Source: Pyrinomonadaceae bacterium
GTDB lineage: Bacteria; Acidobacteriota; Blastocatellia; Pyrinomonadales; Pyrinomonadaceae
Assembly: GCA_046262835.1 (NCBI GenBank)
Contig: JBHELZ010000004.1
Span: 110,336 to 174,335 of the forward strand
Direction of reading: 5' to 3'
Length of the DNA: 64,000 nt
How positions within the stretch are numbered: the first letter of the stretch is position 1; the number at the start of each line of letters is the position of its first letter. This document shows, one piece after another, positions 41,638 to 51,183 of the stretch. A program made the translations under genes and the position numbers. The notes under the pieces were generated by a model that saw nothing but the letters and a program-made list of their open reading frames with translations, was not told the origin of the DNA and did not search any database.

Positions 41638-43065
41638 ATGACAAAGCGCCCAACGATCATGAAATTCGGCGGCACGTCAGTTGAGGACGCTATCGCCATC
41701 CGGAACGTGGCGGCAATCGTGAAACTGGCAGTCAGCTCGCGCCCGGTCATTATCGTGTCGGCGATCCGCGGATTCACTAATTCATTGCTGGCCAGCGTAG
41801 GAAAAGCAATCGACGGCGATGCCCGGGCCGCCACGAAATCGCTTGACCCTGATTTTGATCGCCACTTGACGATTGCCAGACAACTGCTCGACAAGGATTC
41901 GTGCGCGGCATTCGTGGCGACAATTGGCGATGCGCGGAGCAAGATACGGCAATTGCACAAGATCATCGCCGCGCATCCGGTCACCAGTCCGCCGCTGCAG
42001 GATGAGATCGCGGCCTACGGCGAACAGCTATCTTCTCAATTGTTGACGGCGGCGCTGTTAGAACATGATGTGGCCGCGCGTCACGTCGATGCTCGTTGCT
42101 GTATCAAGACGGACGAAACGTATGGCGCAGCCACGCCGCAAGCAGTAACCGCGAACGCGATCACGGCTGAACTGGAACCTTTGCTTAACGTCGCAAAAAT
42201 TCCGGTGCTCGGAGGTTTTATTGGCAGCACCGCGCGAGGTGTCACCACCACACTTGGCCGTGGCGGATCTGATTACTCGGCCGCGATTATCGGGGCGGCC
42301 CTGAACGCGCGCGAGATTCAAATCTGGACGGACGTGAGCGGTGTGCTGACGGCTGATCCGCGAATCATTACTAATGCCCGGACAATCCCGGTTCTCTCTT
42401 ACGAGGAAGCGGCTGAGCTCGCTTACTTTGGCGCCAAAGTGCTGCATCCGAAGACAATTCAGCCGGCGATCGACAAGCGCATTTCCGTCCGTGTGTGTAA
42501 CTCGCGCGCGCCGCGCGAAGCTGGCACGCTGATAGTTTCAGAGTCAGCGGCCGCGCCGCAGACAATCAAAGCGATCGCGCACAAGACCGGAATCACGACG
42601 GTCCAGGTCACGTCGGCACGAATGCTCGGCGCCTATGGTTTCTTACGCGCCTTGTTCGAAGTATTTGATCGACACCGGACCGCCGTTGATGTGGTGACGA
42701 CTTCGGAAGTCAGTGTCTCGCTTTCGATCGATGACGCGACTGCCTTGCCCGAGCTGATTCCTGATCTCGAAGAGTTGGGAACAGTTGAAGTAGAAGAGGA
42801 TCGCACAATAATTTCGGTGGTCGGCGAGGGCTTGCGAAACACGCCCGGGATTGCGGCCCGAGTTTTCTCAGTGCTTAGCGAGATTAACGTTTCAATGATT
42901 TCAGTTGGCGCCTCCAGCGTAAATCTGACTTTTATGGTGGACGAAGCTCACGCCGAGGAAGCGATTCTGCGGCTGCATCGCGTGTGTTTTGAAGATGAAG
43001 CCGGCGGAAAAGGCTCCGGCTCCGGCGCTATCCCTTATAGTCGGGTTTCTGCGGTGCGGAGGTGA
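41638..43065 (+). CDS. lysC: aspartate kinase
   Basis: 475 aa. IMKFGGTSV, GRGGSDYSAA, WTDVSGVLTADPR and C-terminal ACT-like repeats. Confidence 0.9.
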   Translation: MTKRPTIMKFGGTSVEDAIAIRNVAAIVKLAVSSRPVIIVSAIRGFTNSLLASVGKAIDGDARAATKSLDPDFDRHLTIARQLLDKDSCAAFVATIGDARSKIRQLHKIIAAHPVTSPPLQDEIAAYGEQLSSQLLTAALLEHDVAARHVDARCCIKTDETYGAATPQAVTANAITAELEPLLNVAKIPVLGGFIGSTARGVTTTLGRGGSDYSAAIIGAALNAREIQIWTDVSGVLTADPRIITNARTIPVLSYEEAAELAYFGAKVLHPKTIQPAIDKRISVRVCNSRAPREAGTLIVSESAAAPQTIKAIAHKTGITTVQVTSARMLGAYGFLRALFEVFDRHRTAVDVVTTSEVSVSLSIDDATALPELIPDLEELGTVEVEEDRTIISVVGEGLRNTPGIAARVFSVLSEINVSMISVGASSVNLTFMVDEAHAEEAILRLHRVCFEDEAGGKGSGSGAIPYSRVSAVRR

Positions 43066-43066
43066 T

Positions 43067-44095
43067 GTGTTGGCGAGTCCGGTGGATGTCATTCGCCTCA
43101 CGCGCGAGCTGATCGATATTCCTTCCGTTACCGGCGAGGAGTTTCAGATTGGCACGTCGCTTGGCGAATTGCTGGTGCGACTCGGATACCACGTTGAGTT
43201 ACAGGACGTGGAAGACGAGAGAGCGAACATCATCGCCACGACGGAAGCCCGGCCACGGATTATGCTTTCGACGCACATGGACACCGTGCCCCCGTTCATC
43301 GCCTCAAGCGAAGACGACGACTCGATCTATGGACGAGGAGCTTGTGATGCGAAAGGAATAATCGCGACCCAAATTGCCGCCGCCGAACGGCTTCGCTCTG
43401 AAGGTATCAACGAAGTCGGGCTCCTCTTCACCGTTGATGAAGAAGTCACGAGTGGCGGCGCCAAATTAGCGAACGAACATCCGCTGGCAGAATCGTGCGA
43501 GTACCTGATCAATGGCGAGCCTACGGACAATCAACTGGCGATCGGGACCAGGGGATCACTGCAAGCAGTCGTGGCCACGAAAGGCCGCGCCGCGCATTCG
43601 GCTTACCCGGAAGCGGGCGAGTCGGCAATCGAGAAGCTGCTGGATGTGCTCGATGATATTCGCCACCTCAACTGGCCGGGGGACGAAGTCTTTGGCGAGA
43701 CCACCTGCAATATAGGAATCATCGCGGGAGGCACGCGGGCAAACGTGGTTCCTGATGCCGCAGAGGCGACGCTACAGCTTCGTCTTGCGGTCGAGTCGGC
43801 TGCGGTCAAACCTTTAATCGAGCAGACGATCGCGGGCCGCGCGCATATTGACTACCGTTCAGTTCATGATCCGGTGCGCCTGCTAACACTCGACGGCTTG
43901 GATCGCATGCTGGCGCGTTTTACGACTGATATTCCTTATCTGTCAAATTGGGGACAGCCGCTGCTGATTGGACCGGGATCGATTTTAGTCGCGCATACCG
44001 ATCATGAAAGAGTGGAGAAGAGTGAGCTGTTGAGTGCAGTGGATATCTATGTCGACCTTGTACGCAGACTGAGCTTACAGAACCGGCAACCATGA
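43067..44095 (+). CDS. M20 family metallopeptidase, probably succinyl-diaminopimelate desuccinylase (DapE/ArgE type)
   Basis: GTG at 43067 follows ggagg and the lysC stop. LIDIPSVTGEE, HMDTVPP, GRGACDAKG, NGEPT. Lies within the DAP cluster. Confidence 0.7.
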   Translation: MLASPVDVIRLTRELIDIPSVTGEEFQIGTSLGELLVRLGYHVELQDVEDERANIIATTEARPRIMLSTHMDTVPPFIASSEDDDSIYGRGACDAKGIIATQIAAAERLRSEGINEVGLLFTVDEEVTSGGAKLANEHPLAESCEYLINGEPTDNQLAIGTRGSLQAVVATKGRAAHSAYPEAGESAIEKLLDVLDDIRHLNWPGDEVFGETTCNIGIIAGGTRANVVPDAAEATLQLRLAVESAAVKPLIEQTIAGRAHIDYRSVHDPVRLLTLDGLDRMLARFTTDIPYLSNWGQPLLIGPGSILVAHTDHERVEKSELLSAVDIYVDLVRRLSLQNRQP

Positions 44096-44814
44096 AGATC
44101 GCGCTAATCGGCTATGGAGCGATGGGTCAACTAGTCGGCAGACTGGCGGCTGAGCAGGGCCATCAAATCACTTTGACGTTGGATGTTGAAGCTGCCGAGC
44201 GCAGCATCGACGACCTTGTCCAGGTTCTGCGCGCATGTGAGGTGGCAATCGATTTTTCCATCGCCGACGCGGTCCCGAAAGATGTGGCATCGTGTGCACG
44301 GGCCGGTGTGCCGCTGGTTGTCGGGACGACGGGGTGGCAAACGCGGCTCGAAGAAGTACGGCGGGTGGTCGAGCAGTACGATGGCGCTCTGATTTATGGC
44401 GCAAATTTCTCGATCGGCGTACAGCTCTTTTATCGGATCGCTGCGCACGCCGCCGAACTGTTTGGCAATGTCGACTCCTACGATCCATTTATCGAGGAAG
44501 CTCATCACAAACGGAAGCGCGATGCACCTTCAGGTACAGCGATGCAACTTCGCGGAATCGTTGGCGGAAAGCTTGAACGCGAGGTGCCCGTTTCTTCAAC
44601 ACGCGCCGGTTACATTCCCGGTACGCATCGACTTGGCTTTGACTCCGTCGCCGATGAGATCACAATCACCCATGAAGCTCGATCGCGCGAAGGCTTTGCG
44701 GCCGGCGCGCTGCTCGCCGCGGAGTGGATTGTGCGACGCAAGGGTGTCTACGAGTTTTCAGAAGTGTTCGATGAGATAATTAGGCACAGAGACGCAGAGA
44801 GACAGACAAAATGA
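44092..44814 (+). CDS. dapB: 4-hydroxy-tetrahydrodipicolinate reductase
   Basis: 240 aa. MKIALIGYGAMG, EAHHKRKRDAPSGTA. ATGA overlap with the preceding gene. Confidence 0.85.
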   Translation: MKIALIGYGAMGQLVGRLAAEQGHQITLTLDVEAAERSIDDLVQVLRACEVAIDFSIADAVPKDVASCARAGVPLVVGTTGWQTRLEEVRRVVEQYDGALIYGANFSIGVQLFYRIAAHAAELFGNVDSYDPFIEEAHHKRKRDAPSGTAMQLRGIVGGKLEREVPVSSTRAGYIPGTHRLGFDSVADEITITHEARSREGFAAGALLAAEWIVRRKGVYEFSEVFDEIIRHRDAERQTK

Positions 44815-44869
44815 AAGAGAGTTCAAGCGAAGCTTTTCGTCCCTGTGTCTCTCTGTCGCGCTTAGTGAG

Positions 44870-45799
44870 GTGGGACTTATGACGATGAAACTTGACTGGA
44901 TGCGCGGATGCGCGACGGCTTTGGTAACGCCATTCAAAGCCGATGGCGAGGTTGATGAGCAGGGCATGCGGCTGCTCGTCGATCGACAAATTAAGGGGGG
45001 CGTTCGTTTGCTCGTCCCCTGCGGCACGACCGGCGAAAGCGCAACGATGACTGAGGAAGAAGATGCGCGCGTGATTGGGTTGACGATAGAAGTCGCGCGC
45101 GAACGTGCCAAAGTTATAGCAGGCGCGGGCAGCAACGCGACTGCATCGGCGATTGAGTACTCAAAACGGGCCCGCGACCTGGGCGCCGATGCGGTGCTGC
45201 AAGTCGCGCCCTGGTACAACAAGCCCACCCAGGAAGGCTTGTACGCTCACTTTCGCGCCATCGCGGACGCTGTCCCGGAAATGCCAATCATGCTTTACAA
45301 CGTGCCGGGCCGCACTTCGTCGAACATCGCTGCCCAGACGACGCTGCGGCTCGCGCGCGATTGTGAAAATATCGTTGCTATCAAGGAAGCGTCAGGCAGT
45401 TTAACGCAGATCATGGAAATATTGCGCGAGCGGCCGGCGGGTTTTTCTGTCTTGTCGGGCGACGATGCGGTGACGTTGCCGCTAATTGCGCTGGGCGCAG
45501 AAGGATTAGTTAGCGTCGCGTCAAATGAAGTTCCGGATCATATGTCACGCATGACGAACCTCGCCCTGGAGGGAAACTGGGACGAGGCGCGCGCCTTGCA
45601 CTACCGTTTGTTGCCTTTGATGGAAGTGAACTTTATTGAGTCAAGTCCCGGGCCCGTCAAAGCGGCCATGGCTCTGATGGGATTGCTCGAAGAGAATTTT
45701 CGATTGCCGTTGGTGCCGGTTCAAAAAACCAGCCGCACGCGAATTCGCGCAGTGCTCGCCGAACTCGGCGTGCTGGAGACTGCACAAGCAGCTGCTTAA
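44870..45799 (+). CDS. dapA: 4-hydroxy-tetrahydrodipicolinate synthase
   Basis: ALVTPF, GTTGESATMT, YNVPGRT, AIKEASG. The start may be a few codons downstream (MKLDWM). Confidence 0.9.
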   Translation: MGLMTMKLDWMRGCATALVTPFKADGEVDEQGMRLLVDRQIKGGVRLLVPCGTTGESATMTEEEDARVIGLTIEVARERAKVIAGAGSNATASAIEYSKRARDLGADAVLQVAPWYNKPTQEGLYAHFRAIADAVPEMPIMLYNVPGRTSSNIAAQTTLRLARDCENIVAIKEASGSLTQIMEILRERPAGFSVLSGDDAVTLPLIALGAEGLVSVASNEVPDHMSRMTNLALEGNWDEARALHYRLLPLMEVNFIESSPGPVKAAMALMGLLEENFRLPLVPVQKTSRTRIRAVLAELGVLETAQAAA

Positions 45800-45927
45800 G
45801 AAGTCAGAACCGCCTGCGGGTAGCGGGTGGGCCTTATTTCTGTCTGATGGAACGATTGCAGTGTCGCTCAAGCGATGAGTATGTTCTGAACGGGCAGGGA
45901 GACGACCTGCCATACTTTGATTAAGAT

Positions 45928-46791
45928 ATGGCCCGCGCCCCCTCAGGCGGTTCTAACTTCATGCAAACGCAGATCGAAGAACTTGCATCACGCGATCCAC
46001 AGAATTACTCGGATCAGGACTTCGCAATCTTCAATGACTTCAAGGCTGCTCTGAACCGCGGTCAGATTCGCGCGGCCGAACGCGACGCTGGGGGAACGTG
46101 GCGCACGAACGCGTGGGTAAAGCGCGGCATTCTGCTCGGCTTCCGCATGGGATCAATTGTTGAAATGACGCCGCCGGGAGCGCCGTTGCAGTTTCTGGAC
46201 AAAGACACTTATCCAATTCATTCATTTGCGCCTGCAGATCGCGTGCGCATCGTCCCGGGAGGGTCGAGCATTCGCGACGGCGCTTACGTTGCGCCGGGTG
46301 TGGTCTGCATGCCACCCATGTTCGTCAATGCCGGCGCCTATGTAGACGAGGGAACGATGATAGACAGCCACGCGTTGGTCGGATCATGCGCTCAAATCGG
46401 AAAGCGCGTGCATCTCTCGGCGGCGGCGCAAATCGGCGGTGTCCTGGAGCCCGCGGGAGCAATCCCGGTGATTATCGAAGACGACGTGATTGTTGGCGGT
46501 AATTGCGGCGTTTATGAAGGCGCGATTGTGCGCGAACGCGCGGTGCTCGCCTCGGGGACGATTATTACGGGTTCGACTCCTGTTTTTGATCTTGTTCGCG
46601 AGACGATTTACCGACGCTCTGCGGATTCGCCCCTGGAAATCCCGGCCGGCGCTGTGGTCGTGCCGGGCGCGCGACGAATTCAAACCGAAAAGGGCCGTGA
46701 ATGGGGCCTATCGCTTTACGCTCCAGTGATCGTCAAGTACCGCGATGAAAAGACAGATGCGGCGACGCAATTGGAGGAGGCGCTGCGTTGA
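45928..46791 (+). CDS. dapD: 2,3,4,5-tetrahydropyridine-2,6-dicarboxylate N-succinyltransferase
   Basis: [43 protein letters not shown] closely parallels E. coli DapD (recalled sequence). The start may be ATG 45961. Confidence 0.85.
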
Positions 46792-46840
46792 ACTTTCGAA
46801 TACTTGACCGGAGTTTCTAATACCGCCTACTCTTTCAGAC

Positions 46841-47734
46841 TTGAAGAATATGGTTGCACCTTCGCTCCAACCAGCTCTGCCGTCTCCGCTTTCCACTTTT
46901 GATCGTCGGACTGCGCGACCGTTTCTGAAATGGGTGGGTGGCAAGCAACAACTCCTTACCCAGTTCGAGCCACTGTTTCCTGCCAAGTTTCGAAGATATT
47001 TTGAACCGTTCGCCGGTGGAGCGGCGGTTTTCTTTCACCTTTGGAATACGCGCCGGCTGCCCTCTGAAGCTTTTATATTTGACAATAATTCGGAACTCAT
47101 AAATGCGTACCTTGTAATAAGAGACAAAGTTGATGCACTTATTCTCGAGTTGTCGGTCCATCAAAAGCTTCATTCGAAGTCCTATTACTACAAGATTCGA
47201 GGGCTCGATCGAGATAAGACTCAACTTAGCGATGTACAAAGGGCGGCGCGTTCCGTTTATCTGAACCGGACTTGTTACAACGGATTATTTCGCGTGAATA
47301 GCAAGGGGCAATTTAATGTCCCGATGGGCAGCTACCTCAGCCCTCAAGTCTTGCTTGAGCCCGTTATAAGGGCGGCAAGCGGCGCACTGCAGGGCGTCAC
47401 GATTCAGCTAAGAGACTTTCATAGCATCCTTAGCCTTAGCCAGCCGGGCGATTTTTTTTATTTCGATCCTCCATATGATCCGCTAACGAAAACAGCAAGC
47501 TTTACCAGTTACACAGCTGAGAGTTTTAGCGAAGACGATCAACGGGAGCTTGCGAAGGTCGTAACTGCATTATCCGAACAAGGTGCCTACATCATGCTGA
47601 GCAACTCGAAGACTCCGCTTATTCTAGAATTGTATGAAAGGTTCCGCATCAATACTGTCCAAGCACGGCGTGCGGTGAATTCAGACGCAAATGGGAGGGG
47701 TCGCATTGAGGAGGTAGTGGTTTTGAATTACTAA
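46841..47734 (+). CDS. Dam-family (D12 class) N6-adenine DNA methyltransferase
   Basis: PFLKWVGGKQQLL, EPFAGGAAVFF (SAM motif), YLNRTCYNGLFRVNSKGQFNVP, FYFDPPY (DPPY catalytic motif). TTG at 46841 or ATG at 46850. Visibly AT-richer than its flanks. Confidence 0.85.
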   Translation: MKNMVAPSLQPALPSPLSTFDRRTARPFLKWVGGKQQLLTQFEPLFPAKFRRYFEPFAGGAAVFFHLWNTRRLPSEAFIFDNNSELINAYLVIRDKVDALILELSVHQKLHSKSYYYKIRGLDRDKTQLSDVQRAARSVYLNRTCYNGLFRVNSKGQFNVPMGSYLSPQVLLEPVIRAASGALQGVTIQLRDFHSILSLSQPGDFFYFDPPYDPLTKTASFTSYTAESFSEDDQRELAKVVTALSEQGAYIMLSNSKTPLILELYERFRINTVQARRAVNSDANGRGRIEEVVVLNY

Positions 47735-47743
47735 GGCGCGCAT

Positions 47744-48892
47744 ATGCCTGGATATATTTTCGGTCTGAATAGCCTTGACTCACTGCTCTTGTATACGCGG
47801 AATGGCGTTTATGCCACGAGGCTCTCCGAACCGAATGGCTCATGGAGGGGTCACCACGAAGGCACGTTCGCAGATTACGCCACCATGAAGGCCGGGGACA
47901 ATATTTATTTCTTTATTCAACGAAAAATCTACGGCCTTGGAAAGCTAATTAACGTCGGACCGGACTGTAAATACTTCAACTTTCCCGGCGCTAGCCTTCC
48001 TCATTCGTTCGCATACCAGTCGGTTAGACAAAACATTCTTTGGGATGAAGGCGCGATTAGTGTCAATCAACGCTGCGTCTGTTTTTTCGAGCCTGATCCC
48101 CATTTCTTCGCCTCCGGCGTTGATATGGATGACGTTTTGTCCTCGAACCCAGAGGCATTCAAGATGCTGCGAGTTTTTTGGAAGCTTTCCTTCATAAAAT
48201 TTGATGACCATGAGAATCAAGCCTTCCGCGACGTCCTTCTGAAACGAAACCAACGGGTGTTGGTATCAGTGGGACCCGAGGACGCTTTTGATTTCCGACC
48301 ATCTCGTAAAGGAATTCTCCAGCGGCTGACAACTCAACACTTATTTGTCGAGGGCATGACGAATGTTTTGTCGGCGTGTGCGGATGGCGACCAACTGAAG
48401 CACGAGATGGCAATCGAAACCGGTATTATTCATCAGCTTTCCGTTCGCGATGATCACACTTGTGATATTTTCGGCGACTGGGATTACATTTCACATCAAG
48501 TAGTCGCGTCACCCTTCAAGCCCGTCGATTACATGGACAAGATGGACTTGTTTGGCTATGCGTACGTTTCAGGTTTCAAGCCAACTAAAGGCCGCTTCCT
48601 TGTTTGCGAGATCAAGCGAGGCGTTGCGAGGCCCGAAGACATCAATCAATTGATGAAATATGTTGACTGGGTGAAGGATGAATACTGCCACGGAGACTAT
48701 TCAATGATTAGAGCATTCTTTGTTGCCCATGACTTCGAAGAAGGTACATTCGATCATAAGTTGGCAGTTGGGTTGCGGAAGTACACGGTTGGTGTGAGGC
48801 CGGCAAGGTCGCTCGAATGGGACGCCGTGAAACTCTTGAGATATACCTTTAATGGCTCTTCAAGTCGGATTGAATTCACTGTGCTAGCTTGA
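47744..48892 (+). CDS. putative nuclease: PUA/EVE-like N-terminal domain + NucS/DUF91-like PD-(D/E)XK C-terminal domain
   Basis: 382 aa, 9 nt after the methylase stop. C-terminus DKMDLFGYAY...GRFLVCEIKRGVARPEDINQLMKYVDWV fits D...E-x-K plus the Q..kY helix of NucS-like nucleases. N-terminus GYIFGLN...MKAGDNIYFFIQRKIYGLGKL resembles PUA-like (EVE/ASCH) folds, but that is the weaker call. Confidence 0.55.
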   Translation: MPGYIFGLNSLDSLLLYTRNGVYATRLSEPNGSWRGHHEGTFADYATMKAGDNIYFFIQRKIYGLGKLINVGPDCKYFNFPGASLPHSFAYQSVRQNILWDEGAISVNQRCVCFFEPDPHFFASGVDMDDVLSSNPEAFKMLRVFWKLSFIKFDDHENQAFRDVLLKRNQRVLVSVGPEDAFDFRPSRKGILQRLTTQHLFVEGMTNVLSACADGDQLKHEMAIETGIIHQLSVRDDHTCDIFGDWDYISHQVVASPFKPVDYMDKMDLFGYAYVSGFKPTKGRFLVCEIKRGVARPEDINQLMKYVDWVKDEYCHGDYSMIRAFFVAHDFEEGTFDHKLAVGLRKYTVGVRPARSLEWDAVKLLRYTFNGSSSRIEFTVLA

Positions 48893-48901
48893 ACCTTTGC
48901 G

Positions 48902-50050
48902 TTGAATAAATTCCAACCACCACCATTCCTGCGCGGCATTGAAAAGAGCATGATTCGAAAGATTTCGGATCGCGCGAAGCCCGGCAGCATCAGTCTTGGA
49001 CTCGGCGAACCTGATCTGCCGACGCCGGAAGTGATTATTCGTGAAGCCGTGCGGGTCATCCAGGAAGAGAAAAGCGGCTACACCCTGCAGGCCGGCATTC
49101 CGGCTTTGCGCGAACGAATTGCGGGCGATTACCCGCACATGAACCTGAATCTCGATGAAGTGATCGTCACTGCCGGATCGCAGGAGTCGCTTTACTTGAT
49201 TTTACGCACGTTAGTCGAGGCAGGCGACGAAGTGCTGATACCGGATCCAGGCTTTATTGCCTATCCGATGATCCTGAAAATGATCGGCGCGAAAATGGTC
49301 ACTTACCGGCTGCCCGCCAGGGATAATTTTAGTTTTGATCTCGAGGACTTCAGGAAACAGATTACTTCAAAGACTAAAGTCGTTATCTGTATCAGTCCTT
49401 CGAATCCCACCGGACGCGCGCTGTCAAACGACGAGTTGCAGGCGATGGCCGATGCCGTTACGGGCAGCGGCTCAAACGCTTTTATCGTCAGCGACGAGAT
49501 TTATCGCGAACTTTATTACACGCCGAAACGTCCGGCTTCGATCTCGGAATTCTATCCGCGCACAATCATTGTGAGCGGACTGTCCAAATCAATGCGCATG
49601 ACCGGTTGGCGAATTGGTTGGCTCGCCGGTGACCAGGCGGTAATGCGGGCGGCCCTGGTGCTGCATGGATATGTGGTCACATGTGCTTCCGGCATTTCCC
49701 AAAAAGCAGCCCTCGCCGCATGGACTGACGAAGCGGCGGCAGCACGCGTAGACTACCGCGCCATCTTTCACCGGCGGCGCGATCACCTGCTCAACTTATT
49801 GCGCGACGAATTAGGGTTAAGGTGCGTCGCGCCGGACGGCGCGTTCTACACCATGGTTGATGTAAGCCGCTATGGCGATGATTTAAAAGTTGCCGAAGCC
49901 GGCCTCGAGCAAGGCGTGGTTACCATACCTGCCTCGGCCTTTGGCGATCAGGGCAAAGGATTCGTGCGGATATCGTTTTGTGCTGATGAAGAGAAATTGA
50001 GCGAAGGCGTACGTCGATTGGGGCAGGCGCTCGAGTCGTTAAAGGCCTGA
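48902..50050 (+). CDS. class I PLP aminotransferase (aspartate/DapC-like)
   Basis: TTG start. ISLGLGEPDLPTP, PSNPTG, SGLSKSMRMTGWRIGW. Lies between the DAP genes and asd. Confidence 0.8.
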   Translation: MNKFQPPPFLRGIEKSMIRKISDRAKPGSISLGLGEPDLPTPEVIIREAVRVIQEEKSGYTLQAGIPALRERIAGDYPHMNLNLDEVIVTAGSQESLYLILRTLVEAGDEVLIPDPGFIAYPMILKMIGAKMVTYRLPARDNFSFDLEDFRKQITSKTKVVICISPSNPTGRALSNDELQAMADAVTGSGSNAFIVSDEIYRELYYTPKRPASISEFYPRTIIVSGLSKSMRMTGWRIGWLAGDQAVMRAALVLHGYVVTCASGISQKAALAAWTDEAAAARVDYRAIFHRRRDHLLNLLRDELGLRCVAPDGAFYTMVDVSRYGDDLKVAEAGLEQGVVTIPASAFGDQGKGFVRISFCADEEKLSEGVRRLGQALESLKA

Positions 50051-50121
50051 TTTTGTTTAGCGGCGAATGAGCCCGCCGAAATACGATGAAGAAAGGCGGG
50101 CGGTAGGCTGCCTCCAAGCAG

Positions 50122-51183
50122 ATGGTAAACAAGAGATTTCGTGTTGGCATTCTCGGAGCCACCGGCGTGGTGGGCCAGCGATTCATTCAACTGCTCGAAG
50201 ATCATCCCGAATTCGAAATAACCGCCCTCGCCGCATCCGATCGCTCGCAAGGAAAGCCCTTCGCGCACGCTTGTACCTGGCGTTTGCCTGGCGACATGCC
50301 TGAACGTGTCAAACAGATCGCCGTGCAAAGGCCGGAGCCCCCGCTGGATTGCGATCTTGTTTTTTCGAGTTTGCCGGGCGAGATAGCAAAAGGAGCGGAA
50401 GAAGAATTCGCGGCCGCCGGTTATCCCGTGATCAGCAATTCTTCTTCGCATCGAATGAGCGCGGACGTGCCTTTACTGATTCCCGAAGTAAACGCAGACC
50501 ACATAGCGCTAATCGACGTCCAGCGAAAGAACCGCGGCTTTGAACGCGGATTCATTGTCACCAATCCAAACTGTTCGGCAATCGTGATCGTCATGGCCCT
50601 GGCTCCGCTGCACGTGAAATTCGGCGTTACGTCCTGCGTAATCACCACGATGCAAGCTCTCTCCGGGGCCGGATATCCCGGAGTTGCCTCGCTGGACGCC
50701 ACCGACAATGTGATTCCATTTATCGAAGGCGAGGAAGAGAAGATTGAAGCGGAGACGTTGAAGCTGCTCGGCAGCTTTCAAAACGGCAGTATTGAAGAAC
50801 CAGACATGGCGGTCAGCGCACAATGTAATCGCGTGAATGTGAGCGACGGTCACATGGCATCAATCCGGGTGAAGCTCGCGCGAACGGCTTCCGCGACGGA
50901 AATTCGCGAAGTGCTGGCTTCATTCACCTCCGCGCCGCAGCAACTAAAACTTCACTCAGCGCCTGAAAGGCCAATCATAGTTAGAAGCGAAAATGACCGT
51001 CCTCAACCGCGGCTCGATCGCGACTCGGGAAATGGCATGAGTGTAACGGTCGGGCGCATTAACACGGACCCGGTGTTTGATTATCGATTCGTCGCCCTGG
51101 GCCACAACACCATTCGCGGTGCGGCAGGAGCGGCAATCCTTAATTCGGAATTGTTAGCGGCGAGGGGATACCTGGTGCAGTAA
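50122..51183 (+). CDS. asd: aspartate-semialdehyde dehydrogenase
   Basis: 353 aa. VGILGATGVVGQ, active-site NPNCSAI, SGAGY. Confidence 0.9.
   Translation: MVNKRFRVGILGATGVVGQRFIQLLEDHPEFEITALAASDRSQGKPFAHACTWRLPGDMPERVKQIAVQRPEPPLDCDLVFSSLPGEIAKGAEEEFAAAGYPVISNSSSHRMSADVPLLIPEVNADHIALIDVQRKNRGFERGFIVTNPNCSAIVIVMALAPLHVKFGVTSCVITTMQALSGAGYPGVASLDATDNVIPFIEGEEEKIEAETLKLLGSFQNGSIEEPDMAVSAQCNRVNVSDGHMASIRVKLARTASATEIREVLASFTSAPQQLKLHSAPERPIIVRSENDRPQPRLDRDSGNGMSVTVGRINTDPVFDYRFVALGHNTIRGAAGAAILNSELLAARGYLVQ

What the first reader, a model, noticed from the sequence alone, without database searches (positions are those of the whole stretch)
46792..48901. Methylase + nuclease cassette wedged into an otherwise contiguous DAP/lysine operon
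All genes from 41638 to 51183 are on the plus strand and form a textbook succinylase DAP cluster (lysC, dapE-like, dapB, dapA, dapD, dapC-like aminotransferase, asd). The exception is two tightly linked genes between dapD and the aminotransferase: a Dam-family m6A methyltransferase (DPPY, FLKWVGGK) and, 9 nt later, a 382-aa protein with a PD-(D/E)XK nuclease signature. The cassette is clearly AT-richer. Hand counts of 60-nt lines give 40-43% GC at 47041-47160 and 47881-47940, against 60% at 46441-46500 in dapD. No integrase or transposase accompanies it. The simplest reading is a horizontally acquired restriction-modification or defence module. The nuclease partner does not look like any Dam-cognate endonuclease I can recall (DpnII, MboI, EcoRV), so the system may be uncharacterised.
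Basis: partly seen in the sequence, partly recalled or inferred. Interest (0 to 1): 0.8.

Follow-up and report, generated by a model that had tools for sequence, protein, structure and literature searches.

The report
GATC methylase–nuclease cassette in lysine operon
A 2.1-kb mobile two-gene module, made of a Dam-type GATC DNA methylase and an uncharacterised nuclease, has been inserted exactly between two lysine-biosynthesis genes of a soil acidobacterium; the nuclease is unusual because its DNA-sensing half has the fold normally used to detect modified bases.

Summary
Between dapD and the aminotransferase lie a DpnM-like Dam methyltransferase (46850-47734) and, 9 nt later, a 382-aa nuclease (47744-48892). 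This is the lowest-GC 2.1-kb stretch of the window.

It is an insertion. Most Pyrinomonadaceae have dapD abutting the aminotransferase. Some carry other cargo at that junction, and a few carry this pair. A 9-bp repeat (TGCGTTGAA), found nowhere else in the window, brackets the insert.

The nuclease belongs to an unnamed family: about 1,300 homologues, 253 clusters at 50% identity. Sources call it hypothetical, DUF91 or NucS-domain. An AlphaFold model (pLDDT 92) shows an EVE/YTH-like N-domain and a NucS/RecB-like PD-(D/E)XK C-domain with invariant D268, E289, K291, Q302 and Y306.

In 69 assessable loci the gene sits beside a DNA methyltransferase in all but two. It is either the only nuclease next to a Dam methylase, or a third gene in Sau3AI-type clusters with a C5 methylase. 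The conserved positions are the same in both contexts.

Best reading, inferred and untested: a type II-like GATC restriction-modification system with a new restriction enzyme family. The EVE-like domain normally marks methyl-dependent enzymes, so the mechanism is uncertain.

The parts
45928..46791 (+). dapD (tetrahydrodipicolinate N-succinyltransferase), left flank of the insertion
   Evidence: NF008808 scores 304 bits against a cut-off of 204; Pfam THDPS_N_2 and Hexapep
46784..46792 (.). Left copy of the 9-bp direct repeat TGCGTTGAA, spanning the dapD stop codon
   Evidence: This 9-mer occurs only twice in the 64-kb window, at 46784 and 48898. Empty-site relatives such as L017 have one copy, where the dapD stop overlaps the aminotransferase start.
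46804..46833 (+). Promoter-like TTGACC-N18-TACTCT just downstream of dapD
   Evidence: Read directly from the sequence. TTGACC/TTGACA-N17-TAnnnT occupies the same position in L005, L009, L010 and L011. The consensus scan did not call it. Its function is inferred.
46850..47734 (+). Dam-family (alpha-class, DpnM-like) N6-adenine DNA methyltransferase, 294 aa from the conserved ATG (297 aa from TTG 46841); probable GATC specificity
   Evidence: PF02086 at 3.8e-61. TIGR00571 at 273.5 bits, above the 114.85 cut-off; the E. coli Dam equivalog NF008152 is below its cut-off. The best PDB match is DpnM, 2dpm, at 1.9e-74, and residues aligned to EcoDam K9, Y119, N120, L122, R124 and P134 are conserved. 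dN/dS is about 0.14 against L169.
47744..48268 (+). Nuclease N-terminal domain (residues about 1-175), with an EVE/YTH-like (PUA-superfamily) fold
   Evidence: In the AF2 model these residues have pLDDT about 73-97 per 10-residue block, above 90 for most. Foldseek matches EVE proteins 2gbs and 1zce, YTH domains and VcaM4I at probability 1.0 and TM(target) 0.5-0.66. The domain-only model gives EVE proteins as the top eight hits. There is no Pfam hit.
48386..48892 (+). Nuclease C-terminal PD-(D/E)XK domain of NucS/RecB type; H220-E221, D268, E289, K291, Q302 and Y306 are invariant
   Evidence: Alignment A1. Weak hits to NucS: NF003270 at 3.8e-4, PDB 2vld at 0.005, PF01939 at 0.014. Foldseek matches 2vld and 5gke at 3e-4. 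dN/dS is about 0.15.
48898..48906 (.). Right copy of the 9-bp direct repeat TGCGTTGAA, spanning the aminotransferase TTG start
48902..50050 (+). Class I/II aminotransferase (dapC-like), right flank of the insertion
   Evidence: PF00155 at 1.1e-60; it follows dapD directly in most relatives

Best explanation
The cassette is a self-contained, horizontally mobile restriction-modification module of type II logic that targets GATC. The DpnM-like Dam methyltransferase methylates the adenine of GATC on host DNA. The 382-aa protein is the restriction endonuclease. Its EVE-like N-domain binds DNA and probably probes a flipped base of the site. Its NucS/RecB-like PD-(D/E)XK domain cuts DNA whose GATC sites are unmodified. 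The two genes are co-transcribed, methylase first, from a promoter-like element just after dapD. The module entered the overlapping stop/start junction of dapD and the aminotransferase with a 9-bp duplication that kept both host genes intact. Alternative cargo is exchanged at this junction in Pyrinomonadaceae. Shown here: the gene content, the insertion, the protein folds and motifs, the methylase linkage and purifying selection. Inferred: GATC specificity, cleavage of unmethylated DNA, base flipping and the promoter.
For: 1. MTase identity. It scores above the Dam-family cut-off, its closest solved relative is DpnM of the DpnII GATC system, and the residues aligned to the EcoDam GATC contacts are conserved.
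2. Nuclease competence. The D-ExK-QxxxY motifs are invariant, and omega is about 0.15 for both genes.
3. Methylase dependence. Of 80 metagenomic loci, 46 have a D12 MTase directly upstream on the same strand with a gap of 8-74 nt, except L102 (MTase 308 nt downstream) and the degraded or misassembled L110 and L111 (gaps of about 250 and 180 nt). Another 20 lie in C5-MTase plus MutH/Sau3AI clusters, and 3 have an N6_N4 MTase. Eleven contigs are too short to judge. Among the 69 assessable loci, only L118 (nearest MTase about 3 kb away) and, among the short contigs, L138 (contig ends at the nuclease) show no adjacent MTase. MTase and nuclease identities to the window co-vary: 76/74, 70/69, 64/63 and 38/52 %.
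4. In the window and in L001 the pair is flanked only by housekeeping genes, so this protein is the only nuclease partner.
5. The linked methylases belong to three chemical classes, and their contexts are all GATC-type: DpnM-like, DpnII-like two-MTase layouts, and Sau3AI-type. Conserved positions across the whole protein, N-domain included, are the same in the Dam-linked and C5-linked subgroups: 110 positions are at least 90% conserved in both, with one fixed difference. The trigger therefore cannot be either host mark. Unmodified GATC is the simplest feature absent from both kinds of host.
6. Insertion. Empty sites, alternative cargo, the 9-bp repeat and low GC all point to it.
Against: Every characterised prokaryotic nuclease with an EVE, YTH or SRA-type sensor is modification-dependent, and such fusions are rarely beside methylases (PMC6765204, PMC7897488, PMC12707154). 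In the Sau3AI-type trios a complete restriction enzyme is already present, so the family member is redundant there if it also cuts unmodified GATC. DUF3427 modification-dependent enzymes (BwiMMI, EfaL9I) occupy an analogous position. GATC is not depleted in the window: 468 observed against 463 expected. This result is neutral. Neither the methylase specificity nor any cleavage activity has been measured.
Confidence: 0.6

Rival explanations
1. The nuclease is a modification-dependent (type IV-like) enzyme whose EVE/YTH-like pocket reads a foreign modified base such as 5hmC, another hypermodified base, or m6A. The neighbouring methylase is not its protector. It would be an orphan or regulatory Dam in the pairs, and part of a separate Sau3AI system in the trios.
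For: The N-domain has an EVE/YTH fold. The layout of sensor, linker helices and nuclease is the same as in VcaM4I. DUF3427 modification-dependent enzymes ride on Sau3AI-type systems in the same way. ScoA3V, a PUA-like HNH enzyme stimulated by 6mA, sits beside an adenine methylase.
Against: This reading does not explain why the family is found almost only beside methylases, all in GATC-type contexts, of three different classes. It does not explain why the two-gene Dam pair travels as a unit across phyla with co-varying divergence. An m6A reader would be suicidal in an operon with an active Dam methylase under purifying selection. A GAT5mC reader would be suicidal in the trios. The conserved positions are the same in both contexts.
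Confidence: 0.15
2. The protein is an accessory nuclease that senses the methylation state of GATC rather than a classical restriction enzyme. It might, for example, nick the unmethylated strand of hemimethylated sites in the manner of MutH, or process damage or replication intermediates at GATC sites. This would explain its presence alongside a full Sau3AI-type enzyme.
For: It co-occurs with MutH/Sau3AI-family proteins in trios. The catalytic domain resembles the mismatch endonuclease NucS/EndoMS. SRA-type PUA-superfamily domains are known to read hemimethylated sites (established knowledge of UHRF1; not tested here).
Against: The distribution is sporadic and HGT-like, the composition is foreign and the gene sits in a cargo hotspot, all of which fit a selfish or defence module rather than repair. 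In the Dam pairs it is the only nuclease. No repair genes are linked.
Confidence: 0.12
3. The pair is ancestral, vertically inherited housekeeping content of the DAP operon, for example a regulatory Dam methylase with a partner protein, and not an insertion.
For: Several Blastocatellia carry the pair at the same junction, with divergence similar to the flanking genes: L005 71/68%, L009 76/74%, L092 71/68%.
Against: About 20 related species have dapD abutting the aminotransferase. Others carry unrelated cargo there, including the two closest relatives by dapD identity (L007 and L008, 87%). The 9-bp duplication, the lowest GC in the window and the presence of the same pair in other genomic contexts in other phyla also argue against it.
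Confidence: 0.03

Closest known systems
DpnII / MboI-type GATC restriction-modification cassettes (S. pneumoniae DpnI/DpnII/DpnIII locus)
   Same: The MTase is a Dam-family, DpnM-like methylase. The module is small and lacks an integrase. Alternative cassettes are exchanged at one fixed chromosomal locus (for Dpn; here). Some relatives add a second beta-class N6_N4 methylase, as DpnA does in DpnII (L109, L134).
   Different: The nuclease has no similarity to the DpnII/MboI family or to any Pfam, NCBIfam or PADLOC restriction-enzyme model. It is an EVE-like plus NucS-like fusion.
Sau3AI-type systems (C5 methylase + MutH/Sau3AI-family endonuclease, with or without Vsr)
   Same: Both are GATC systems. 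Family members at 46-52% identity to the window protein are embedded in them in many bacteria and, at 22% identity, in a haloarchaeal plasmid.
   Different: The window carries no C5 methylase and no MutH-like protein. Here the family member is the sole nuclease, and the methylase modifies adenine.
PUA-superfamily modification-dependent endonucleases (VcaM4I EVE-HNH; YTH-McrB of Thermococcus; ScoA3V)
   Same: An N-terminal EVE/YTH-like sensor, a helical linker and a C-terminal nuclease.
   Different: There is no sequence-level match to EVE or YTH. The nuclease is PD-(D/E)XK rather than HNH. The family is almost always beside a methylase, whereas fewer than 6% of such fusions are.
NucS/EndoMS mismatch endonuclease
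   Same: A RecB-like C-terminal domain with D, ExK and QxxxY motifs. Some databases label family members DUF91 or NucS-domain proteins.
   Different: Scores are far below the NucS cut-offs: 19.6 bits against 216. The N-terminal domain is EVE-like, not the NucS N-domain. The genomic context is restriction-modification, not repair.
RM cassettes inserted into operon-like clusters with target duplication (Furuta et al. 2010, PMC2853133)
   Same: There is no mobility gene. The repeats span a stop or start codon so that the target genes stay intact. The insertion lies inside an operon-like structure.
   Different: The duplication is short (9 bp), and the same junction also hosts toxin-antitoxin-like and other cargo.
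BwiMMI / EfaL9I (DUF3427 modification-dependent enzymes next to GATC C5 methylase + Sau3AI-like genes)
   Same: They occupy the same 'third gene' position in Sau3AI-type clusters.
   Different: They belong to a different protein family: no DUF3427 hit appears in the window protein or in the Bacillus and Clostridium homologues. Those enzymes are not reported with Dam methylases.

Membership tests
Type II restriction-modification system | Separate, adjacent methyltransferase and endonuclease genes | tested here: met
   9-nt gap, same strand
Type II restriction-modification system | Endonuclease never found without a cognate methyltransferase | tested here: met
   Among the 69 assessable loci only L118 lacks an adjacent DNA methylase (nearest about 3 kb away). 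L138, whose contig ends at the nuclease, also shows none in the 2.1 kb upstream.
Type II restriction-modification system | Endonuclease cuts the unmodified site and is blocked by the cognate methylation | not testable with these tools
   Needs biochemistry or genetics
Dam family (TIGR00571, D12 class) methyltransferase | Score above the curated cut-off; DPPY and FxGxG motifs | tested here: met
   273.5 bits against 114.85; motifs read in the sequence
E. coli-type housekeeping Dam (NF008152 equivalog) | Score above the equivalog cut-off | tested here: not met
   157.6 bits against 441. The protein is closer to DpnM.
Dam family methyltransferase | GATC specificity | tested here: inconclusive
   The residues aligned to the EcoDam contacts are conserved. 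Which residues make those contacts is recalled from memory (Horton et al. 2006). No methylome was available.
DpnII/MboI or MutH/Sau3AI restriction endonuclease families | Match to PF04556 or PF02976 | tested here: not met
   No Pfam hit for the 382-aa protein
NucS/EndoMS | NucS C-domain above cut-off, and the NucS N-terminal domain | tested here: not met
   PF01939 at 15.8 bits against 24. NF003270 at 19.6 bits against 216. The N-domain is EVE-like.
PD-(D/E)XK nuclease superfamily | Conserved D...(D/E)xK catalytic residues on the restriction-endonuclease-like fold | tested here: met
   D268, E289 and K291 are invariant; structural match to the NucS nuclease domain
PUA superfamily (EVE/YTH) modification-dependent endonucleases | EVE/YTH-like sensor domain fused to a nuclease | tested here: met
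   Foldseek probability 1.0 to EVE and YTH structures. Structural similarity only; no sequence match.
PUA superfamily (EVE/YTH) modification-dependent endonucleases | Stand-alone gene, not linked to a protecting methyltransferase | tested here: not met
   Linked to a methylase in about 97% of assessable loci, against fewer than 6% for known fusions
PUA superfamily (EVE/YTH) modification-dependent endonucleases | Cleavage requires a modified base | not testable with these tools
   Model coordinates could not be inspected, so the pocket chemistry was not examined

The most novel reading that the evidence does not exclude
The EVE/YTH-like domain is a true methyl-mark reader, and the two-gene module works by 'mark and cut'. 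The Dam methylase would mark DNA, either invading DNA as in the Pgl system or self DNA as a licensing signal, and the nuclease would respond to that mark. This would be a minimal methylation-dependent defence system. The same reader-nuclease would act as a DpnI-like adjunct in Sau3AI-type hosts.
Probability: 0.08. Interest if true: 0.85.

Novelty: new variant of a known kind. Interest (0 to 1): 0.55.

Why it matters
If the best explanation holds, this is an unrecognised and widespread restriction enzyme family for GATC, one of the most studied sites in molecular biology. About 1,300 homologues were found in many bacterial phyla, plus one distant archaeal homologue. The enzyme would be built on a protein fold thought to be reserved for detecting modified bases. 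That would show that EVE/YTH-like domains can be used to sense the absence of a methyl mark, and it would add a component that current defence-system and genome annotation pipelines miss. The family also occurs in culturable Bacillus and Clostridium species, and E. coli Dam makes the presumed protective mark, so the central question can be tested with simple cloning. Separately, the dapD/aminotransferase junction is a clear example of a defence-cargo hotspot inside a biosynthetic operon, with a precise duplication that preserves both genes.

Tried and rejected
1. The nuclease was searched against Pfam, NCBIfam, PADLOC and PHROGs. Only sub-threshold NucS_C and PDC-S02 fragments appeared. One Pfam call failed because I gave the wrong reading frame.
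2. Sequence and profile searches of the PDB found only weak NucS matches.
3. A phmmer search of 1.84 billion representative proteins with the N-domain alone found only the same two-domain architecture. No informative alternative fusions turned up.
4. A search of the phage collection found nothing. The plasmid collection gave two hits, both annotated as hypothetical.
5. The viral fold library gave only uncharacterised EVE-like proteins.
6. GATC avoidance in the window was tested and none was found. This result is uninformative.
7. I looked for long flanking repeats, inverted repeats and mobility genes. Nothing exceeded chance except the 9-bp repeat, which fell below the tool's length threshold and was found by eye and then counted. 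A 13-nt imperfect inverted repeat (46835-46847 and 48857-48869) was not pursued.
8. Remnants of the cassette were sought in empty-site relatives with a relaxed tblastn search. None were found.
9. The domain-only AlphaFold model was poor (pLDDT 63), but it still retrieved EVE proteins.
10. The exact window protein could not be located in the assembly index.
11. One literature search failed because a term was too short. The EcoDam contact residues are therefore cited from memory.
Full report
**1.

The plus-strand run from 41638 to 51183 encodes lysC, an M20/DapE-like deacylase, dapB, dapA, dapD, two inserted genes, a class I/II aminotransferase and asd. NCBIfam places lysC, dapB, dapA, dapD and asd above their curated cut-offs. 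The M20 protein and the aminotransferase match at family level only.

- **First inserted gene.** This is a D12-class methyltransferase carrying FLKWVGGK and DPPY. It matches PF02086 at 3.8e-61 and TIGR00571 'dam' at 273.5 bits against a cut-off of 114.85. The ORF finder starts it at TTG 46841. The ATG at 46850 is the start shared with relatives L009 and L169.
- **Second inserted gene.** It starts 9 nt after the methylase stop, spans 47744-48892 and encodes 382 aa.
- **Composition.** The 2.1-kb cassette (0.481 GC) is the lowest-GC stretch of that length in the window, whose mean is 0.547 with sd 0.018. Third-position GC is 0.49 and 0.54 in the two genes, against 0.59-0.65 in the flanking genes.

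**2. It is an insertion, at a junction that collects cargo**

The nuclease is 100% identical to a hypothetical protein of a Pyrinomonadaceae MAG (Acidobacteriota, Blastocatellia). I scanned one genome per species with dapD and then ran tblastn with the window's genes.

- **Empty sites.** In about 20 related genomes (for example L017 and L020-L026) dapD abuts or overlaps the aminotransferase.
- **Other cargo.** The two closest relatives by dapD identity (L007 and L008, 87%) and also L014 and L018 carry different genes at this junction. These include an AF2212-like antitoxin, a PIN-like protein, a SIR2-like split ORF and a GIY-YIG-like protein. L010 and L011 carry about 600 nt with small ORFs.
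- **Same pair, same site.** L005/L006, L009, L087-L094, L111 and L169 carry the methylase-nuclease pair at this junction. No decayed remnants of the pair were found in the empty sites.
- **The borders.** TGCGTTGAA occurs only twice in 64 kb. One copy lies across the dapD stop (46784) and the other across the aminotransferase start (48898). Empty sites have a single copy in which the stop and start overlap. L015 and L019 show the same duplication around scars of 27-37 nt.

This matches the published pattern of RM insertions whose repeats span a stop or start codon and leave the target genes intact, including insertions into operon-like structures (PMC2853133). No integrase or transposase is nearby, and no longer repeats were found.

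**3. The methylase**

Its closest solved relative is DpnM of the DpnII GATC system (2dpm, 1.9e-74). E. coli Dam is more distant (about 2e-37). The protein falls below the E. coli Dam equivalog cut-off, which fits an RM-type enzyme rather than a housekeeping Dam.

In the printed alignment, the residues aligned to EcoDam K9, Y119, N120, L122, R124 and P134 are conserved. That these are the GATC contacts comes from my memory of Horton et al. 2006, so GATC specificity is probable but not shown.

**4. The nuclease**

No library names this protein. It belongs to a family of about 1,300 detectable homologues, forming 253 clusters at 50% identity. Almost all are 370-470 aa long with the same architecture. 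Sources label them hypothetical, DUF91, or 'NucS domain-containing'.

An AlphaFold2 model built from 45 homologues is confident (pLDDT 92, pTM 0.90).

- **C-terminal domain.** Foldseek matches it to the nuclease domain of NucS/EndoMS.
- **N-terminal domain.** Residues of about 1-175 match EVE proteins (2gbs, 1zce), YTH m6A readers and the EVE-HNH enzyme VcaM4I at probability 1.0, with target-normalised TM of 0.5-0.66. A lower-quality model of this domain alone (pLDDT 63) still retrieved EVE proteins as its top eight hits.
- **Catalytic motifs.** H220-E221, D268, E289-x-K291 and Q302xxxY306 are invariant.
- **Selection.** Against the closest relative (L169, 87% identity), dN/dS is about 0.14 for the methylase and 0.15 for the nuclease. 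Both genes are therefore maintained by selection.

**5. Context across the family**

I scanned metagenomes with the family alignment and classified the neighbours of 80 loci.

| Context | Loci |
|---|---|
| Dam-class methylase linked; in 43 of the 46 it lies directly upstream on the same strand, 8-74 nt away | 46 |
| Cluster with a C5 methylase and a full-length MutH/Sau3AI-family endonuclease, often with Vsr; gene order varies | 20 |
| N6_N4 methylase only | 3 |
| Contig too short to judge | 11 |

- L102 is an exception within the Dam-linked group: its D12 MTase lies 308 nt downstream. L110 and L111 have larger gaps (about 250 and 180 nt) and look degraded or misassembled.
- The loci in Sau3AI-type clusters hold the more distant family members, at 46-52% identity to the window protein.
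- Among the Dam-linked loci, L109 and L134 add a downstream N6_N4 methylase, a two-methylase layout like DpnII.
- Among the 69 assessable loci only L118 lacks an adjacent methylase, with the nearest about 3 kb away. L138, one of the short contigs, ends at the nuclease and shows none in the 2.1 kb upstream.
- The Sau3AI-type trio recurs in a Clostridium tagluense plasmid, in Bacillus wiedmannii and in Clostridium tetani. A homologue of 22% identity sits in the same context on a Haladaptatus plasmid.
- The conserved positions are the same in the Dam-linked and C5-linked subgroups, across the whole protein and including the N-domain. In both, 110 positions are at least 90% conserved, with one fixed difference.

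**6. Most likely mechanism**

Whatever feature triggers cleavage must be absent from hosts whose GATC sites carry m6A and also from hosts whose GATC sites carry 5mC. It must also explain why the family is tied to GATC-type methylases of three chemical classes. Unmodified GATC is the simplest such feature.

I therefore read the window cassette as a type II-like GATC restriction-modification system. The EVE-like domain would recognise the site, possibly by flipping a base as EVE, SRA and NucS proteins do. The PD-(D/E)XK domain would cut. In the pairs, as in the window, this protein is the only nuclease.

All of this is inference. My confidence is about 0.6.

**7. What argues against it, and the rivals**

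- **Modification-dependent enzyme (about 0.15).** Characterised EVE, YTH and SRA-nuclease fusions all depend on modification, and fewer than 6% lie near a methylase (PMC6765204, PMC7897488, PMC12707154). In the trios a complete Sau3AI-like enzyme is already present, and DUF3427 modification-dependent enzymes (BwiMMI, EfaL9I) hold an analogous position in such clusters. ScoA3V, a PUA-like HNH nickase stimulated by 6mA, sits beside an apparently silent adenine methylase. Against this reading, an m6A reader would be suicidal next to an active, co-transcribed Dam methylase. A 5mC-in-GATC reader would be suicidal in the trios. A reader of some unrelated modification would not explain the methylase linkage.
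- **Methylation-state-sensing accessory nuclease, for example directed at hemimethylated sites (about 0.12).** This explains the trios. It fits poorly with the mobile, sporadic distribution of the pairs.
- **Ancestral operon content (about 0.03).** This is contradicted by the empty sites.

**8. Novelty and verdict**

The kind of system is known: a small RM cassette inserted into an operon and exchangeable at a hotspot. Close parallels are the pneumococcal Dpn locus and RM insertions into operon-like structures.

The new element is the nuclease family. Pfam, NCBIfam, PADLOC, PHROGs and RefSeq naming do not recognise it. It combines a modified-base-reader fold with dependence on a methylase, and it also appears as a third gene in Sau3AI-type systems. 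I could not query REBASE, so a prior characterisation there cannot be excluded.

I rate it a new variant of a known kind, with interest of about 0.55. The key experiment is simple because E. coli Dam supplies the presumed protective mark.

Noticed in passing
L007 1888-3262; L008 2914-4695; L014 6843-8639; L018 6880-8596; L010 6831-7414: In related Pyrinomonadaceae the same dapD/aminotransferase junction holds other cargo. This includes a 73-93 aa AF2212-like antitoxin ORF (MVIEAKYENGVF...), a PIN-like toxin, a split SIR2-like ORF, a GIY-YIG-like 295-aa protein and small conserved ORFs. The junction therefore behaves as a small defence/TA hotspot inside a biosynthetic operon.
   Followed up: partly
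window 46804-46833; also L005, L009, L010, L011 just after dapD: A conserved promoter-like TTGACC/TTGACA-N17/18-TAnnnT element lies immediately downstream of the dapD stop, both in genomes with the RM pair and in genomes with other cargo. It may drive the cargo and the downstream aminotransferase-asd genes.
   Followed up: partly
L140, L146, L148-L150, L152, L154-L165; L167 (Clostridium tagluense plasmid); L170 (Bacillus wiedmannii); L172 (Clostridium tetani); L168 (Haladaptatus plasmid): More distant members of the nuclease family are a recurrent third gene in C5-methylase + MutH/Sau3AI-family endonuclease (with or without Vsr) clusters. Gene order varies. RefSeq annotates these members as hypothetical, DUF91 or NucS-domain proteins.
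   Followed up: partly
L102 7397-8245; L115 1612-2427; L139 (downstream of the nuclease): A 271-282 aa protein with no Pfam match co-occurs with the nuclease family and a methylase in a few loci. The L102 and L115 copies are 38% identical. Its function is unknown.
   Followed up: no
L169 1-900: In the closest relative of the cassette (87% identity) the contig runs from the start of secA to a 26-aa dapD C-terminal remnant, then an AF2212-like pseudogene, then the methylase. The lysC-dapD block therefore appears to be deleted or rearranged there, or the contig is chimeric.
   Followed up: no
window 46835-46847 and 48857-48869: A 13-nt imperfect inverted repeat (TCAGACTTGAAGA / TCTTCAAGTCGGA) lies near the two ends of the cassette. 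It is within the range expected by chance for this region, and its conservation was not checked.
   Followed up: no
window 47734-47749: A small palindrome (AGGCGCGCATATGCCT) overlaps the nuclease start codon in the 9-nt intergenic gap. It could lower translation of the nuclease, but the stem is weak (5 pairs).
   Followed up: no
window, whole 64 kb: CTAG is strongly under-represented: 24 observed against 55.6 expected from a Markov model. GATC is at expectation (468 against 463).
   Followed up: no
window 42989-43065: The ORF finder's TTG start for the M20/DapE-like gene overlaps lysC by 77 nt. Relatives call a shorter protein of 338 aa (L005), so the true start probably lies further downstream.
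   Followed up: no
L036, L045, L050, L067: Some MAGs labelled Gemmatimonadetes or Rhodospirillales carry dapD genes 62-71% identical to the window's. L036 also has Pyrinomonadaceae-like dap operon order, which suggests mis-binning or gene transfer.
   Followed up: no
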